From: a virus
Taxonomy: Duplodnaviria > Caudoviricetes
Virus record (IMG/VR): IMGVR_UViG_3300033066_001917
Span: 64,001-128,000 of that record
DNA: 64,000 nucleotides
Reading direction: 5' to 3' (one strand)
The notes beneath the pieces were generated by a model. That model had not been told where the DNA came from and made no database searches. It saw nothing but the letters and a program-made list of their open reading frames with translations. The position numbers were made by a program, and so were the translations under genes. Positions 278 to 33,508 of this stretch are shown piece after piece; within the stretch, counting starts at the first letter, position 1, and each line of letters starts with the position of its first letter.

Positions 278-3200
278 TCATGTCCACACCTCCGAAATCA
301 TGTTGTAAAGCTCCTTACCCACTGAAAGGCCGGATACACCCACATCACCTACACCAGCCGCCATTAGGGCTGATTCAGAATCAAGTCCGTCGGTAGCCAT
401 GCTTACCCCCACCTTGTGGAAGAGGAGACTCATAGCTTTCTCTTGGGAGATTACCGTGTATCTCGGAAGGTAGATGCGAATTTCCTTATCCTGGCCAATT
501 CTATCCGATCGTCCTTTTGCTTGACGATAAACGATTGGGTTACATGCCGGGTTTTCGTGCCACCACTGCGAGGAAAAATGCACCAGAACGTTCAATCCGG
601 TCTGGACGCATACCGGGTTGGTGATAAGAACTGGAGCCTTTGGCCCCACTACGTGTTTATCAATCCACGACTGACGTTTACCCGTGGGGACTTTGGCCGG
701 ATCCAACACGGGCACCTTCCATCCAAACTTGGTTTCAATGAGCTTTTGCAAACGAGGGATAAGCTCCACGTGCCATGTAAGCACCAGGACGTTCCTACCC
801 TCTTTGTACTCATTTTCAATTGTGGAAAGAAGCTCACGTTCCTTGGGGAGAGGAGCCAACCCTACGGGTTCTCCTCTAGCCACAAGAAGTCGTCCCTCCG
901 ACTCCGGGTACCGGACTTCATAAGCCCCGTCCGGGGTATTTCCAGTATCCTTTGTCGCTCTGTCGAGATGAGAGGGGATCTCGGACACTTGCCCCCATAG
1001 CTTTCCTGCGAGGGGGGTGTATCTATCTTTCCTTACCTGATTGAGGAGTTCCCCCACAAGAAATAGGTGGACATTCTCCTGGTCCGGGTCAGGTTTGACC
1101 CTCACTACAATCTCACGGCATGGGGGAAGGTTTAGGGCTAGATCCGCTTTGTGGATCGTCACACAGGAAGCTAGCATTTTAAGGACAAATAGAGGGAGAA
1201 CCCCGGGAGCAGAACCAAGGTCTTTCTCCTTTCGTTCAACCCTATCCGACATAGCCCCGTATTCCACGATCTCTCCGGTGGACTTGTCCGTGTCTTGGAG
1301 GAGGCGCTTCCGATATCCATATCGGTCTACAAATGGTCTTCGGTCATCTCGGTCGAATTCCTCCCTAAAAGAAGGAAAAAGGGCCCACCAGTTGGCAAAC
1401 AAGGACTCGGCGTACCCATTCATAATAGACCCGGTGAGTAGGATGGTAGGTTTTCCCAATCCTGTAAGCCTGTGGGCAGCTCGTTCTTGGGCCGATCCAT
1501 CCGTACTATATTCGTGACCCTCGTCTAAAATAAGGAAATCGAAAGTCTCAGGTTTGTTGTGTGTGATATAAGTGGCCAGTGGGTAGCGCATAGGCTCCCC
1601 AATTGCTTGAAACAATTCTGTGCCACACTCCTCTTCCCGAATCCAGGTTGCGGTTTCGTTGAGGGATGATAGAGCCATGAATATGTGACCCGTATCTCCC
1701 ATAGGCCGATTCCGATACGTTGGGTGCCCGTCTGCCGTAGAAAGGTCTAGGTATCCATTTTCACATGACTCCTTGAAACTCGTCATCTCCCGCCAGAATT
1801 TCTTGAAGTTGTCATGTGTAGTTTCATCCCTCAATCTATTTTGGTGACTTGTGGGAAGCATCATGTACAGGTTTTTAGCCGCGTCCTGGCAATGCATTCC
1901 TGCCCCATATTCACCCAATTGGAATGCCACGGAACCAACCAGAAGTGTGGTAGCAACGTCCAGAGTCAAATCCGGATCATTGATTCCGGCTAGAAAGTGA
2001 ACGATGGCTTTTACCTCGGGGGCACTCCCGTACCCATAGCGTTCTGGGAACAACCCGACCAACCTTCGTGCAATATCTTTCACACGAGGCTGTTGTCGGA
2101 GATCCGCCATCAACTCCTTTCTTTTACTTTCTACTGAGGTTCTGTCCAATGAACCTTCCTCTTTTGAGGCTTTAAGCACCATGGAGGATAGGAGCCCACC
2201 CGTAAGAGCAGCCCTTACAACGGAGTTGGTTGGGTTTAGTTTGTAGAACGTCCTGGCTATTTCAAGCAGGATCTCCGCGTCCTCGGAGCTAGGCTTGATT
2301 GGTTTGAGGGAACATCGGCTTCTCTTTTTTGCCAAGTCTTCGTCAGGAAGCTTCCCCCCGCACCCAGGGCATGATTTTTCAACCCCAATCCAACCGTGGC
2401 CTAGTTTGGCCGCCTCACGGGATAGGATTCCAAGAATCCGTCCTCCTTTATAGGAGGCCATAGCATCAATGTCTGAAACCGACCGTAGAACCATCACTTT
2501 TGCGGATGGGTCTACGAATCTCATTTGTTCTTCCCAGGATTCTAGAAGGTGGGGTGGACAAACCACTAAAATCTTCTCAGAACCACATGCAAAAGCAGTG
2601 GCCAGCGACATTCCGCTTTTCCCGCAACCAATCTCACCTAAGAGAATGGCGGATTTCCCTTTCCTTCTAGCCATAGAGACATTGGGCCCCCCTAGAAGGC
2701 GAGTTAGGGCTCTAACCGCGTGCTCCTGAGCTTGAAATAGCGGTCTAGCGAGAATAGGCAGGGGAAAGTGATCCTTTGGGTTGGCCGGATCATATAGAAC
2801 TGGGCAATGGGACCTAAGAACTCTCAAAAGAGATTTGCCGTAGAGAGTGAGGAGATCCCCCGAAGTCATTCTGGCTGTATCAACGGATCCAGTTATCGAA
2901 GTAGAAGATTGGATCTCCTGTATTTTTTTTGTTTTGAGATCCAATACCGTGATGACAAGCCTGGGTCGCTGGGCTTGTACAACGGATGTGACTTCACCGT
3001 CTTTGTTCTTTTTTTCTTCAATGGTCTCGTATTCCCGGTCGAATACTCCTTTGACCAAAATGTCGGGAGCGCCGGATTTTGGGTCATCCGGTACAACCCG
3101 TTCCCCATTAAATACTCCGGCGGCAATACCCGCCGCAATGTGTGCAGGTTTTGGTGGGACGGCCACTGGATACTTTCTAGTAGCCAAAGACTCTGCAGAT

Positions 3201-4936: not shown

Positions 4937-5323
4937 TCAAGAGCCAATCAGCATTTTCTTTACAAGATGGGCGTTCAATTGCCGATCAATCTCTCGATCG
5001 GAGTATAGGTTACCCACATCATAGTGGACTAACCAAGCCTCCTCCATGAAATCAACCAACCGGAACTCTTCCCCCCCAAAAAAGTAGTAGACAGAAGCCA
5101 TAGGGTGTGGTTTATTCTCTACCCTACACACACGGATAAAATGGTCGATAACTACCGGGGAGAACGTCACAACGATGGCGTCCCCTGCATGGATGGTGTG
5201 ACCATCAGTGTCTTTCTCAATCTCCATGACTGAGTCAACCCGATCTCTGATCCGGTCGGGATGGTCGTCCCCAGAAATGAAAACCTCACCCGGTCGTGGG
5301 TGCCGGTTGATGACCAGCTTCAC
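4937..5323 (-). CDS. hypothetical protein
   Basis: 128-aa ORF with a GTGA overlap with the upstream ORF. Confidence 0.65.
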   Translation of the reverse strand: MKLVINRHPRPGEVFISGDDHPDRIRDRVDSVMEIEKDTDGHTIHAGDAIVVTFSPVVIDHFIRVCRVENKPHPMASVYYFFGGEEFRLVDFMEEAWLVHYDVGNLYSDREIDRQLNAHLVKKMLIGS

Positions 5324-30352: not shown

Positions 30353-30376
30353 ATGTCTCTCTCTTTCCTTGCGGAG

Positions 30377-30449
30377 CGTGGCCGATGGGAGTCGAACCCA
30401 CTAACACCTGGATTTAGAATCCGGGCCCTTGCCGTTCGGGCACGACCAC
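30377..30449 (-). tRNA. amber suppressor tRNA, anticodon CUA
   Basis: Reverse complement folds as GTGGTCG-TG-CCC GAACGGCAA GGG-C-CCGGA TT CTA AA TCCAG-GTGTTA-GTGGG TTCGACT CCCAT-CGGCCAC-G. One C.A mismatch in the anticodon stem; no encoded CCA. Confidence 0.85.
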
Positions 30450-30567
30450 GGTTGATACTTACGTCCTGGCTTTTACTCTGACTCGAAATCCGAAAGAAAA
30501 TCTTCTCCCATGATGTCTCTTTTTTTAACCCAATCCAGAAGTTTCTGGCGACCTCACGCTCATAATT

Positions 30568-32061: not shown

Positions 32062-32397
32062 TCAGATCGTTGCCAGAGGCAACTTATCTGTTACTTTACG
32101 TGTGTGGTCGGATGGACCAAGGACTAGGCAGGTTGTTTGGTCGTCCAAATCCGGCTCCCTAAAAACTGAGCATGGGATCCCCAACTGACAAGCTTTCCCA
32201 TGCAGAGTCAAAAGGTGCCCCTCATCTTTAGCATGTAGGACAACGATGGTGTTCGATTTTTGCCGCCACGTGTGGTTGACCTCTGGATGGTCAGCGATGA
32301 ACTCATCTCTACCATGGAGGGCCTGGGCCAACTGGGAACCAAAATTCAGGTCCGATCGAACGACCACGTACATCTTGTCGGTGGGTTTGGCCATCAC
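32062..32397 (-). CDS. peptidyl-tRNA hydrolase, Pth2-like
   Basis: KMYVVVRSDL..GSQLAQALH, IVVL and FREPDL...TCLVLGP match the PTH2 fold pattern. Confidence 0.8.
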   Translation of the reverse strand: MMAKPTDKMYVVVRSDLNFGSQLAQALHGRDEFIADHPEVNHTWRQKSNTIVVLHAKDEGHLLTLHGKACQLGIPCSVFREPDLDDQTTCLVLGPSDHTRKVTDKLPLATI

Positions 32398-32834
32398 GCC
32401 ACCTTTGATGCACGAATTGAGGCTAGCTTGCTCAAGTTCGCTTCACGCTTGAGTCTCCTAGCCTCTTCCCCTGCGGCCATTCTACGGATACGTCGCTCTT
32501 TCCTGGCTTCCGTTTCTGGCTCCTTAAACCAGGAATCAATCTGATCCTGAGTAACCTCTACCCCATGGTGAAACAGTAGGGCCCACACCATCCACGAAAG
32601 GTGAACGTGTCCGCTTGTCAAGTCGGCCGTGGGTTCTGTTACCCTGTATGCTTTACCCCGAAGATAGGCATAGGCCAAAAACATAACCCTCGAAGCCTGT
32701 GCTTCGGAGTAGGGGTGCAGAGCGACATCCCCCCCCACTGGGTACTTGAACCTTTTTCCCGTTCTGTAAATCTCGAGAATGTGGGAAAATTGGCCCTTAG
32801 CTTTGATGATGCTTTTGATTTCAATCGTCTTCAT
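32394..32834 (-). CDS. basic hypothetical protein coupled to Pth2
   Basis: 146 aa with R..FLAYAYLRGK.Y...E; SD AAGGA 9 nt upstream; GTGA overlap with the Pth2 gene. Confidence 0.75.
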   Translation of the reverse strand: MKTIEIKSIIKAKGQFSHILEIYRTGKRFKYPVGGDVALHPYSEAQASRVMFLAYAYLRGKAYRVTEPTADLTSGHVHLSWMVWALLFHHGVEVTQDQIDSWFKEPETEARKERRIRRMAAGEEARRLKREANLSKLASIRASKVA

Positions 32835-32842
32835 GTGAACTA

Positions 32843-32894
32843 TTCCTTGTAATGATGCTGCGACACTTGAACTTGCAAGGCCATCATTACAGGG
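32843..32894 (-). promoter_or_regulatory. mRNA hairpin abutting/occluding the SD of ORF 32394-32834
   Basis: Perfect 10-bp inverted repeat (32848-32857 / 32882-32891), extendable by CC:GG pairs into the AAGGA SD. Confidence 0.7.
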
Positions 32895-32915
32895 GGGTCC
32901 ACGGGATCGATTGAG

Positions 32916-32933
32916 CTAGTAGAAGTGGTTCAT
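32916..32933 (-). CDS. leader mini-ORF MNHFY-amber; read-through gives LNRSRGPP... in frame with ATG 32834
   Basis: ATG AAC CAC TTC TAC TAG CTC AAT CGA TCC CGT GGA CCC CCC; the ATG sits exactly at GTAA-N8; no further in-frame stop before 32834. Confidence 0.6.
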   Translation of the reverse strand: MNHFY

Positions 32934-32971
32934 GACTGATGTTACCATCCTGATCATTCGACTGACTTGTG

Positions 32972-33508
32972 TCAAGTGCAGTTTTCTTCTTCAAGCAAAT
33001 TTGATTGAAGGATAGCCCCTATTGCTTCCACCTCGGTGAATTCCGAGGTGTCATAATTCCCCGATGTTATTCGTGCCACTAGTTCTTTGTTTCTTTTTTC
33101 CGCTTCTTCCAACTCTTGGGTCATCATTTCTGAGGCTGCAGCATGTGCGTCTTTAGAGGATTTAGCTGTGAGAACGTGGTGCCCATATCCATTAAGTAGG
33201 GCTCTCATTCTCCTGCCGCTTTCATTATCAATTGGACATTCCAGGGGGAATCTAAGCTCTCCGTGAATTTGTCGGTGGACGAGCCAGAGGTAACGGGGCT
33301 TCCCTTTTGTGTTGGTTCCGTTTGGAATGCGGATTATGCGGATTCCGGCTCTGTATTCCGCACGTGAAGTGACGTACACCTCCGTGTCCGCGTCAACCCG
33401 TTGGTCGCAGCAATCCTTATATATCTCTTCGGTAAGGTTTTTTTCGTACAATATGGCTTCATTCAAACTATGAAATTTAACCTCATCGAAATTGCGGAAA
33501 ATTCCCAT
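32972..33508 (-). CDS. hypothetical protein
   Basis: Long ORF with a C-terminal coiled coil; start uncertain (33508 vs 33556). Confidence 0.65.
   Translation of the reverse strand: MGIFRNFDEVKFHSLNEAILYEKNLTEEIYKDCCDQRVDADTEVYVTSRAEYRAGIRIIRIPNGTNTKGKPRYLWLVHRQIHGELRFPLECPIDNESGRRMRALLNGYGHHVLTAKSSKDAHAAASEMMTQELEEAEKRNKELVARITSGNYDTSEFTEVEAIGAILQSNLLEEENCT

What the first reader, a model, noticed from the sequence alone, without database searches (positions are those of the whole stretch)
32062..32945. Candidate amber-readthrough sensor: leader MNHFY-UAG-LNRSRGPP plus SD-occluding hairpin controlling a Pth2 operon
Seen in the sequence (minus strand): an ATG at 32933, placed exactly at the window-wide GTAA-N8 position, opens ATG AAC CAC TTC TAC TAG. 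Past the amber, the frame continues L-N-R-S-R-G-P-P with no further stop into the ATG of ORF 32394-32834. The Pro-Pro codons directly precede the 5' arm of a perfect 10-bp stem (UGUAAUGAUG/CAUCAUUACA), whose 3' arm abuts and can pair into the AAGGA SD. The downstream gene is coupled to a Pth2-like gene. Established: RAPP/RGPP/RAGP-type motifs are ribosome-arrest sequences; SecM- and ErmCL-type leaders activate downstream genes when a stalled ribosome melts an SD hairpin; minigenes cause peptidyl-tRNA drop-off that Pth recycles. Inference: a ribosome terminating at UAG stays about 25 nt short of the stem (OFF). One that reads through, via the phage tRNA-CUA or low RF1 activity, stalls at RGPP on the 5' arm and frees the SD (ON). 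That would be a stop-codon-sensing translational switch for a translation-rescue module, an arrangement I do not recognise as described.
Basis: partly seen in the sequence, partly recalled or inferred. Interest (0 to 1): 0.9.

Follow-up and report, generated by a model that had tools for sequence, protein, structure and literature searches.

The report
Stop-codon-gated leader sensing suppressor tRNA
A huge phage places a tiny leader before a peptidyl-tRNA-hydrolase operon; the leader reaches its ribosome-stalling Arg-Gly-Pro-Pro motif only if a UAG stop is read through, and in 20 related phage loci its stop codon matches the phage's own suppressor tRNA, so it looks like a natural, unpublished sensor of stop-codon readthrough.

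Summary
On the minus strand, ATG 32933 opens MNHFY-UAG. The frame then runs LNRS-RGPP, and a perfect 10-bp stem follows whose 3' arm abuts the AAGGA ribosome-binding site of a 146-aa gene coupled to Pth2.

Every relative of the 146-aa gene with readable upstream DNA (about 27 loci, about 14 lineages) has the same plan:
- a sigma-70-like promoter, then an ATG at or near the transcript's 5' end;
- a 2-12-codon mini-ORF, one in-frame stop, 2-23 further codons, then RGPP (rarely RVPP, RGSP or RASP);
- a helix pairing those codons with the ribosome-binding site 44-59 nt downstream.

RGPP codons vary only at synonymous positions. The leader's stop is TAG, TGA or TAA, and it matches the anticodon of a nearby suppressor tRNA (CUA, UCA or UUA) in 20 of 20 loci where a tRNA was found.

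Corrections:
- The in-frame link to the main ATG is coincidental.
- The device is not amber-specific.
- GTAA looks related to the transcription start, not to ribosome binding.

Readthrough, stalling and switching are inferred, not measured. I found no published description. This scan has already met the same design in at least 10 other genomes.

The parts
32970..32975 (-). -35-like TTGACA; it overlaps the TGA stop of the upstream 194-aa ORF
   Evidence: Invariant in the five closest leaders. T[TGA]GACA is present in the distant leaders, which lack the 194-aa gene.
32947..32952 (-). -10-like CAGGAT, 17 nt after the -35 box
   Evidence: Distant lineages have TAGGAT, TAAGGT, TAGGTT, TAACCT or TAGGGT at the same 17-nt spacing, mostly 7 nt before the mini-ORF ATG (read).
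32942..32945 (-). GTAA, 8 nt before the mini-ORF ATG; a recurrent motif of this phage, probably close to the transcription start
   Evidence: 35 of 273 genes at -11 to -13; it also lies 9-12 nt before the 5' ends of the tRNA-CUA, the tmRNA and three other tRNAs. Invariant in the window-group leaders.
32916..32933 (-). Mini-ORF ATG AAC CAC TTC TAC TAG (MNHFY-amber); the UAG at 32918-32916 is the gate
   Evidence: 17 of 18 nt are identical in relatives whose proteins are about 54% identical. The only copy in the 200-kb record.
32892..32915 (-). Post-stop codons LNRS (32915-32904) and the arrest motif RGPP (32903-32892)
   Evidence: RGPP is in frame with the ATG and stop in all 19 leaders tabulated (RxPP, RGSP or RASP in the further leaders). 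Thirteen distinct codon strings differ only at third positions, plus a CGN/AGG switch.
32835..32902 (-). Helix masking the ribosome-binding site. Outer pairs GUGGAC (32902-32897) with GUUCAC (32840-32835); CC (32894-32893) with GG (32846-32845); 10-bp stem 32891-32882 with 32857-32848
   Evidence: MFE -22.7 kcal/mol, z -2.6. (duplex -19.9 against -5.7 for shuffles, p 0.001). (80% of cells paired in the five close relatives; outer helix 97%).
32844..32848 (-). Ribosome-binding site AAGGA of the 146-aa gene, 9 nt before ATG 32834
   Evidence: ACAAGGAAT is conserved in the five window-group leaders.
32394..32834 (-). 146-aa protein of an unnamed phage family; a conserved partner of Pth2 with no known fold
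   Evidence: (46 representative clusters). AF2 pLDDT 94.7. No convincing structural match. No Pfam or PHROG family.
32062..32394 (-). Pth2-type peptidyl-tRNA hydrolase; its start overlaps the upstream stop (TGATG)
   Evidence: PF01981, E 5e-12; phrog_1866. Adjacency is conserved in almost all relatives.
30376..30449 (-). tRNA with anticodon CUA (amber suppressor), same strand, 1.6 kb downstream of Pth2, preceded by its own GTAA-N9
   Evidence: Present in every TAG-leader locus.

Best explanation
This is a stop-codon-gated ribosome-arrest leader that reports whether the phage's amber-suppressor tRNA is working.

Proposed steps:
1. Transcription from the conserved promoter gives an mRNA whose 5' end lies at or a few bases before AUG 32933.
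2. Ribosomes translate MNHFY and normally terminate at UAG.
3. The RNA from the RGPP codons onward then stays paired with the AAGGA ribosome-binding site and the bases just before AUG 32834. The 146-aa gene and the translationally coupled Pth2 gene stay silent.
4. When charged tRNA-CUA outcompetes release factor 1 at the UAG, the ribosome goes on eight codons to Arg-Gly-Pro-Pro and arrests there with the Pro codons in its P and A sites.
5. The stalled ribosome holds the 5' strand of the helix, so the ribosome-binding site and AUG 57 nt downstream become free and the two genes are translated.

Shown here: the sequence anatomy; its conservation; translation-type constraint on RGPP; co-variation of the leader stop with the tRNA anticodon; conserved complementarity.

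Taken from the literature: RGPP is the most robust RAPP-type arrest core and resists EF-P.

Inferred: that readthrough, arrest and unmasking happen, that the output is ON rather than OFF, and why Pth2 should be tied to suppression (probably recycling of peptidyl-tRNA or rescue of ribosomes under suppression).
For: 1. Conservation beyond the coding level. The leader is about 90% identical in relatives whose proteins are 53-56% identical.

2. Same plan in distant lineages. Examples:
- MTHKPHFF-TAG-VRS-RGPP, MNHFM-TAG-LGA-RGPP, MYL-TAA-(13 codons)-RGPP.
- MIPFY-TGA-IFGA-RGPP, MLEHFM-TAG-VCHC-RGPP, MTHFM-TAA-LRGA-RGPP, MHS-TAG-IKI-RGPP-TAG.
- MA-TAG-INI-RGPP, MLNFW-TAG-HC-RGPP, a 12-codon ORF-TAA-LP-RGPP.
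- MTH-TAG-VKV-RVPP, MKKT-TAG-IFFA-RGSP.

3. The arrest motif is always in frame with the ATG and stop, although spacer lengths differ by whole codons. Thirteen RGPP codon strings vary only at positions 3, 6, 9 and 12, plus CGN/AGG.

4. The stop matches the nearby suppressor tRNA in 20 of 20 loci where one was found: TAG/CUA in 14, TGA/UCA in 5, TAA/UUA in 1. Stop types are interspersed on the protein tree, which implies at least 3 joint switches.

5. Duplex between the RGPP region and the ribosome-binding-site region: p <= 0.013 in each of 16 leaders, built from unrelated sequences. Folds have z -2.4 to -5.2.

6. The distance from PP to the main AUG is 44-59 nt in the leaders (30-41 in three divergent ones), while the phase relative to the main ORF varies.

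7. A relaxed pattern search hit only loci that carry the 146-aa family, plus L088 where a divergent member is likely.

8. RGPP gives the strongest arrest of the RAPP-like cores and is refractory to EF-P (PMC12992588). RGPP and RAPP are absent from the 274 predicted proteins of this phage.
Against:
- The nascent chain at arrest would be only 13-14 residues and lacks the localisation signal of known RAPP peptides, so its arrest strength in this context is untested.
- One TAA-leader phage (L018/L047) shows no tRNA within 14.8 kb.
- Within the five closest relatives, covariation is modest: one compensatory pair, with 30-39 of 500 shuffles as good.
- MAFFT plus RNAalifold on 16 leaders found no consensus structure.
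- GGACCUCC is also an anti-ribosome-binding-site sequence, so part of its conservation could act at the RNA level.
- The 200 kb in hand show no TAG recoding, so why the phage needs suppression is open.
Confidence: 0.72

Rival explanations
1. The same gated arrest leader, but it reads release-factor activity rather than the tRNA. Readthrough rises when RF1 (or RF2 for TGA leaders) is depleted or inhibited during infection. The tRNA match merely reflects which stop each phage manipulates.
For: Readthrough depends on tRNA/RF competition by established knowledge. An earlier, unchecked scan note says this phage also encodes a frameshift-gated RF1-like factor (e1-5666357). One TAA leader has no nearby tRNA.
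Against: A cognate suppressor tRNA lies within a few kb in 20 of 20 loci where any was found, and its anticodon switches with the stop. Without a suppressor, near-cognate readthrough is rare.
Confidence: 0.1
2. The gated arrest is real but the output differs. The stalled ribosome might protect the transcript from Rho or nucleases, or trigger cleavage or rescue, rather than unmask the ribosome-binding site. Alternatively the switch turns the operon off.
For: Early termination leaves about 80 nt of untranslated RNA, a classical setting for polarity. The phage carries a tmRNA.
Against: Conserved complementarity targets exactly the ribosome-binding-site and pre-AUG bases in all lineages. The arrest site is 44-59 nt (30-41 in three divergent leaders) from the AUG, too far to occlude it. 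No terminator-like U-tract follows.
Confidence: 0.1
3. An RNA-only element. An anti-ribosome-binding-site hairpin (GGACCUCC-like) masks the site constitutively or under a protein or temperature signal. The ATG, stop and RGPP reading would then be incidental.
For: The RGPP codons are themselves complementary to GGAGG-type ribosome-binding sites. No experiment shows that the leader is translated.
Against: Variation has a strict three-base periodicity in phase with the ATG and stop. Spacer changes come in whole codons. One cognate stop is present in every leader. The stop and anticodon co-switch.
Confidence: 0.04
4. The leader is an N-terminal extension of the 146-aa protein, read through a recoded TAG. 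Or the hairpin is the terminator of the upstream 194-aa gene.
For: In this window the frame is open from ATG 32933 to the 146-aa ORF. The hairpin lies after the 194-aa ORF.
Against: The phase relative to the main ORF is 0, 1 or 2 in relatives, with an in-frame TAA in L009. The five nearest homologue clusters are 148-149 aa and begin at the equivalent of ATG 32834. No U-tract is present. The hairpin is conserved where the 194-aa gene is absent.
Confidence: 0.02

Closest known systems
RAPP/RGPP-type regulatory arrest peptides (ApdA, ApdP, ApcA; SecM with RAGP; Streptomyces lividans RAPP/RGPP uORFs; PMC12992588, PMC10987492)
   Same: An Arg-Gly-Pro-Pro core encoded in a short ORF directly upstream of the regulated gene. 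The downstream ribosome-binding site is held in a stem that a stalled ribosome would open.
   Different: - The arrest motif lies behind an in-frame stop codon, so it is reached only by readthrough.
- The peptide is 13-14 residues with no signal peptide or membrane segment, so nothing can pull it out of arrest.
- The element is phage-borne and upstream of Pth2, not of Sec/YidC or transport genes.
ErmCL/ermC and SecM/secA translational attenuation
   Same: A ribosome stalled on a leader melts a hairpin that sequesters the next gene's ribosome-binding site.
   Different: The input there is an antibiotic or secretion activity. Here the inferred input is decoding of a stop codon by a suppressor tRNA.
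prfB (RF2) autoregulatory recoding
   Same: An early in-frame stop codon serves as a sensor of termination efficiency to control a translation factor.
   Different: prfB uses a +1 frameshift at CUU-UGA-C within the gene itself. Here decoding stays in the zero frame, in a separate leader, and is coupled to an arrest peptide.
Engineered UAG-containing trp/tna leader peptides (unnatural-amino-acid switches; PMC6412442, section 6)
   Same: Translation beyond an inserted UAG in a leader peptide, by a suppressor tRNA, switches on downstream genes.
   Different: Those are synthetic and act through transcription attenuation or Rho. This one is natural, appears translational, and uses an arrest motif.
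AMD1 readthrough-and-stall (PMC13025110)
   Same: Ribosomes that read through a stop codon arrest at a conserved downstream peptide.
   Different: AMD1 is eukaryotic. The stall lies at the end of a 3' extension and limits output of the same mRNA. No dedicated tRNA is involved and no ribosome-binding site is unmasked.
Stop-codon-recoded phages with suppressor tRNAs (code 15 or code 4; PMC9523058, PMC10879173)
   Same: A phage-encoded tRNA-CUA or tRNA-UCA is thought to switch decoding during infection.
   Different: This phage is not visibly recoded in the 200 kb available. Here the stop sits in a regulatory leader, not in late structural genes.

Membership tests
RAPP/RGPP-type ribosome arrest peptides | R-[AG]-P-P core in a short ORF upstream of the regulated gene | tested here: met
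   RGPP lies at 32903-32892, 57 nt before the regulated AUG. It is conserved in frame in all 19 leaders, with RVPP, RGSP or RASP in three divergent lineages.
RAPP/RGPP-type ribosome arrest peptides | Amino-acid-level (translational) constraint on the motif | tested here: met
   Thirteen codon strings differ only at synonymous positions.
RAPP/RGPP-type ribosome arrest peptides | N-terminal signal peptide or membrane segment that couples arrest release to localisation | tested here: not met
   The whole peptide up to PP is 14 codons including the stop, with no hydrophobic segment.
RAPP/RGPP-type ribosome arrest peptides | Demonstrated elongation arrest at the Pro codons, refractory to EF-P | not testable with these tools
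   Known for RGPP in other contexts (PMC12992588). Not measured for this peptide.
Leader-controlled unmasking of a ribosome-binding site (ErmCL/SecM type) | Ribosome-binding site of the downstream gene paired with leader sequence that a stalled ribosome would cover | tested here: met
   MFE structures. Duplex test p <= 0.013 in 16 of 16 leaders. 80% of cells paired in close relatives.
PTH2 peptidyl-tRNA hydrolase (PF01981) | Full-length match above Pfam's gathering score | tested here: met
   46.4 bits against a cut-off of 23; residues 8-108 on profile positions 2-114 of 115.
Stop-codon-recoded phage (genetic code 15) | Genes interrupted by in-frame TAG that open under TAG = sense | tested here: inconclusive
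   TAG ends 50 of 274 heuristic genes. Long ORFs do not lengthen. Coding-like extensions follow TAG in 6 of 42 genes against 14 of 127 for TGA. Only about 38% of the genome is in hand.
prfB-type programmed frameshift sensor | Slippery CUU-UGA-C with an upstream ribosome-binding-site-like stimulator; product in the +1 frame | tested here: not met
   The sequence at the stop is UUC UAC UAG C. The conserved downstream motif lies in the zero frame in all lineages.
Intrinsic terminator | GC-rich stem followed by a U-tract | tested here: not met
   No U-run follows 32848. The scan finds no terminator there.
Rfam RNA families | Match to any curated covariance model | tested here: not met
   Only chance-level hits (E 8-10) in 32700-33100.

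The most novel reading that the evidence does not exclude
In this phage, which otherwise uses the standard code, the amber-suppressor tRNA may act mainly as a trans-acting regulatory signal rather than as a recoding device. Its dedicated natural target would be the UAG in this leader. The leader, the 146-aa protein, Pth2 and the tRNA would then form a self-contained circuit that times a translation-rescue or termination-control module. That would give 'orphan' phage suppressor tRNAs a function. It would also supply a natural, portable reporter of the genetic-code state of an infected cell.
Probability: 0.3. Interest if true: 0.9.

Novelty: new variant of a known kind. Interest (0 to 1): 0.85.

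Why it matters
- How, when and why phages deploy suppressor tRNAs is an open question. One paper says that what triggers the code switch 'is poorly understood' (PMC10879173, abstract).
- This leader would be the first natural regulatory element whose input is stop-codon suppression. It ties a peptidyl-tRNA hydrolase and an unknown partner protein to that state, which makes the question testable with simple reporters.
- It shows a new way to use an RGPP arrest peptide: gated by a stop codon rather than released by secretion force.
- It explains suppressor tRNAs in phages that are not visibly recoded.
- It offers a compact natural part for genetic-code-expansion circuits.
- It reveals a general link between phage Pth2 genes and suppressor tRNAs.

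Tried and rejected
- Rfam on 32700-33100: chance-level hits only.
- tblastn against the phage collection, and the search for related loci with the single protein or close alignment, found nothing in IMG/VR, the phage collection or the metagenome collection. Alignments A4 and A5 worked.
- Scan of IMG/VR for a 17-nt leader pattern: 4 hits, all chance, with no RGPP context.
- MAFFT plus RNAalifold on 16 leaders gave no consensus helix, because the alignment is not structure-aware.
- My first hand-written bracket string was one column out of register; corrected.
- Complex prediction of Pth2 with the 146-aa protein: no verdict. This is no evidence either way.
- Foldseek against PDB, the ESM Atlas and VIA-align wide gave no convincing fold match for the 146-aa model.
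- TAG recoding of the phage: no sign in 200 kb. G001, a GC-rich relative, was uninformative.
- The L018 record could not be searched whole. 14.8 kb of its twin L047 holds no tRNA.
- Isotype of the tRNA-CUA is unresolved; its nearest relative in the phage is tRNA-Arg(UCU) at 76% identity.
- Rejected readings: N-terminal extension, terminator of the 194-aa gene, sigma-54 promoter in GGCCTTGC (spacing wrong, read by eye), programmed frameshift.
Full report
**Setting.**
- The window is bases 64001-128000 of a 200,245-bp IMG/VR virus record that CheckV rates 38% complete, so this is a huge phage.
- The record carries 37 tRNA genes and a tmRNA.
- TAG behaves as an ordinary stop. It ends 50 of 274 heuristic genes. 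Long ORFs do not lengthen if TAG is read as sense. Coding-like in-frame extensions are no commoner after TAG (6 of 42) than after TGA (14 of 127).
- A single tRNA with anticodon CUA lies at window 30376-30449 on the minus strand.

**Observation.**
- GTAA lies at 32945-32942.
- ATG 32933 opens AAC CAC TTC TAC, then TAG at 32918-32916.
- CTC AAT CGA TCC follows, then CGT GGA CCC CCC (RGPP) at 32903-32892.
- A perfect 10-bp stem follows: 32891-32882 with 32857-32848.
- AAGGA lies at 32848-32844 and the main ATG at 32834.
- The 146-aa ORF overlaps the start of a Pth2 gene in TGATG. Pth2 matches PF01981 at E 5e-12.
- The minimum-energy fold extends the stem: CC pairs with the GG of the ribosome-binding site, and GUGGAC inside the Arg-Gly-Pro codons pairs with GUUCAC just before the AUG.
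- On its own this copy is not statistically striking. The value lies in comparison.

**The regulated genes.**
- The 146-aa protein has no Pfam or PHROG family. It belongs to a real family: five clusters at 53-56% identity and 46 representative clusters by profile search.
- The family shares a LAYAYLRG..YRV.EPTA core and a basic C-terminal helix.
- AlphaFold gives a confident model (pLDDT 94.7) with no convincing match in PDB or the ESM Atlas.
- In almost every locus fetched, a Pth2 gene follows the family member directly, often with overlapping stop and start.

**Conservation of the leader.**
- In the nearest relatives (L002, L006, L009, L010) the proteins are about 54% identical. The stretch from TTGACA to the main ATG is far better kept, and the mini-ORF is 17 of 18 nt identical.
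- These relatives lack the 194-aa gene that lies upstream in the window. The conserved block is therefore not that gene's 3' end or terminator.
- More distant members have unrelated nucleotide sequences but the same plan. The plan, in order:
  1. T[TGA]GACA, then 17 nt, then a TA-rich hexamer (TAGGAT, TAAGGT, TAACCT or similar).
  2. Most often 7 nt, then ATG.
  3. A mini-ORF of 2-12 codons, often ending in Phe plus an aromatic or Met residue.
  4. One stop codon.
  5. Two to 23 codons, usually beginning with Leu, Ile, Val or Met.
  6. Arg-Gly-Pro-Pro.
  7. 44-59 nt to the main start codon (30-41 nt in three divergent leaders).
- The 7-nt gap after the -10 hexamer means the mini-ORF AUG should sit at or next to the 5' end of the mRNA, making it leaderless.
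- In the window lineage the gap is 13 nt and contains GTAA. GTAA-N8-10 also precedes the 5' ends of the tRNA-CUA, the tmRNA and other first-in-cluster tRNAs. I therefore read GTAA as an element close to the transcription start, not as a ribosome-binding site. That point is unproven.

**Is RGPP translated?**
- Thirteen distinct 12-nt strings encode RGPP across the leaders. They differ only at positions 3, 6, 9 and 12 and by a CGN/AGG switch, so every difference is synonymous.
- The motif is in frame with the ATG and the stop in every lineage, although the mini-ORF and the spacer differ in length by whole codons.
- The phase relative to the main ORF is 0, 1 or 2, and L009 has an in-frame TAA before the main ATG. 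The open frame into ATG 32834 in this window is therefore a coincidence, and the leader is not an N-terminal extension.
- A relaxed pattern was run over 1.3 kb upstream of 45 phage Pth2 genes. It looks for M, up to 14 residues, a stop, up to 22 residues, then R-x followed by PP, SP, GP or PG. It hit only loci that also carry a member of the 146-aa family, plus L088, where a divergent member is likely.
- Within the 200-kb record the only TAG-gated hit is this one.

**The stop matches the tRNA.** All three stop codons occur in leaders.

| Leader stop | Suppressor tRNA found | Loci |
|---|---|---|
| TAG | CUA | window, L002, L006, L009, L010, L017, L020, L025, L037, L060, L066, L084, L088, L089 |
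| TGA | UCA | L023 (ARAGORN reads an 8-nt loop, 'ttca'), L024, L028, L029, L032 |
| TAA | UUA | L078 |

- That makes 20 matches and no mismatch.
- L088 also carries a tRNA-UCA beside its tRNA-CUA.
- One TAA leader (L018/L047) has no tRNA within 14.8 kb. Five contigs are too short to tell.
- On a tree of the 146-aa proteins the stop types are interspersed. For example, L078 (TAA/UUA) groups with L025 (TAG/CUA) and L034 (TGA). L037/L060 (TAG/CUA) nest beside TGA/UCA lineages. The stop and the anticodon must therefore have switched together at least three times.
- The tRNA bodies differ: 74 nt in the window and L010, 84-92 nt with long variable arms elsewhere. What is conserved is the codon-anticodon match, not a particular inserted residue.

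**The masking helix.**
- In every lineage the 22 nt starting at the Arg codon are strongly complementary to the 24 nt before the main AUG. Duplex energies are -15 to -26 kcal/mol, against -6 to -14 for shuffled partners. Each of 16 leaders gives p <= 0.013.
- The pairing sequences differ between lineages: GGACCUC with GAGGUCC, CCUUCGA with UCGAGGG, CCGUUGG with CCAACGG, and the 10-bp stem here.
- Whole-segment folds have z-scores of -2.4 to -5.2.
- Within the five closest relatives, 80% of cells pair in the correct register against 27-54% when slid. The outer helix pairs at 97%. There is one compensatory UA-to-CG pair and several GU/GC/AU changes. The shuffle control is only moderately exceeded.
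- MAFFT plus RNAalifold across all leaders failed.

**Mechanism.**
- RGPP is reported as the most robust of the RAPP-like arrest cores and as refractory to EF-P (PMC12992588).
- A ribosome arrested with the Pro codons in its P and A sites would hold the 5' strand of the helix.
- A ribosome terminating at the UAG, 13 nt before the helix, would not.
- The ribosome-binding site lies about 45 nt beyond the arrest site, too far to be occluded.
- The most economical reading is therefore OFF when the stop is obeyed and ON when it is suppressed.
- Readthrough, arrest and switching are all inferences. No transcription-start, profiling or reporter data could be obtained.

**Why Pth2?** I can only infer.
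- Of 45 IMG/VR phage Pth2 loci, about 33 have a suppressor tRNA within 3.5 kb, often directly 5' of Pth2 even where the leader and the 146-aa gene are absent. Pth2 and suppression are therefore linked more widely than this leader.
- Plausible roles are recycling of peptidyl-tRNA dropped during RF/suppressor competition, or rescue of ribosomes that run past stops. The phage's tmRNA fits that theme.
I did not check that note.
- The complex prediction for Pth2 with the 146-aa protein gave no verdict.

**Comparison and novelty.**
- The effector half is a known kind: a RAPP-type arrest peptide unmasking a ribosome-binding site.
- Gating by an in-frame stop cognate to a phage suppressor tRNA is not described in any paper I could find.
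- The nearest ideas are prfB autoregulation, engineered UAG-bearing leader peptides (PMC6412442) and the eukaryotic AMD1 readthrough-stall (PMC13025110).
- After reaching this reading I found that this scan had already reported the same design in at least 10 other genomes, with follow-up agents drawing the same conclusion. My tests were made independently of those notes.
- This copy adds several things: a phage that is not visibly recoded, a tRNA placed 1.6 kb downstream of Pth2 with its own GTAA element, and a leader that happens to be in frame with the main gene.

Noticed in passing
whole record G000; e.g. window 32942-32945, 30459-30462: GTAA lies 8-10 nt before many start codons (35 of 273 genes at -11 to -13). 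It is often the loop of a small hairpin (a GUAA tetraloop). It also lies 9-12 nt before the 5' ends of the tmRNA, the tRNA-CUA and three other tRNAs. It looks like an element close to the transcription start, or a processing element, that gives leaderless mRNAs.
   Followed up: partly
L048-L092 (IMG/VR loci around phage Pth2 genes): About 33 of 45 phage Pth2 loci carry a suppressor tRNA (mostly CUA) within 3.5 kb. In many, the tRNA-CUA sits directly 5' of Pth2 without the 146-aa gene or the RGPP leader. The Pth2-suppressor link is wider than this leader.
   Followed up: partly
L023:4124-4200, L050:3813, L067:3358: ARAGORN reports tRNAs with an 8-nt anticodon loop ('ttca') next to Pth2, in loci whose leader stop is TGA (L023/L050).
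   Followed up: no
L017:3353-4618 and 5110-5201: A class-II aminoacyl-tRNA synthetase core (PF00587, 421 aa) lies between Pth2 and a 92-nt long-arm tRNA-CUA. This may be a dedicated charging enzyme for the suppressor.
   Followed up: no
L066:1759-1829: ARAGORN and gathering-mode cmscan both missed this tRNA-CUA. The RF00005 search of the whole record, and E-value-mode cmscan, found it. Absence calls from ARAGORN alone are unsafe here.
   Followed up: yes
L088:2887-4346: One phage locus holds tRNA-UCA, tRNA-CUA and a tmRNA around Pth2. Its leader reads MKHL-TAG-INFG-RASP.
   Followed up: no
window 30376-30449: The tRNA-CUA has a 3-bp D-stem and a C.A mismatch in a long anticodon stem. Its nearest relative in the phage is tRNA-Arg(UCU) at 76% identity. 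The amino acid it carries is unknown.
   Followed up: partly
L037:3261-3327, L060 (leader at about 3018-3060), L084 (about 2154-2190): In AT-rich lineages the arrest motif is followed at once by a second stop (RGPP-TAG, RVPP-TAA), so the readthrough peptide ends at the motif.
   Followed up: no
G000, all 274 heuristic proteins: RGPP and RAPP are absent (about 1.4 and 1.0 expected). This is consistent with the reported avoidance of these motifs but is not significant by itself.
   Followed up: yes
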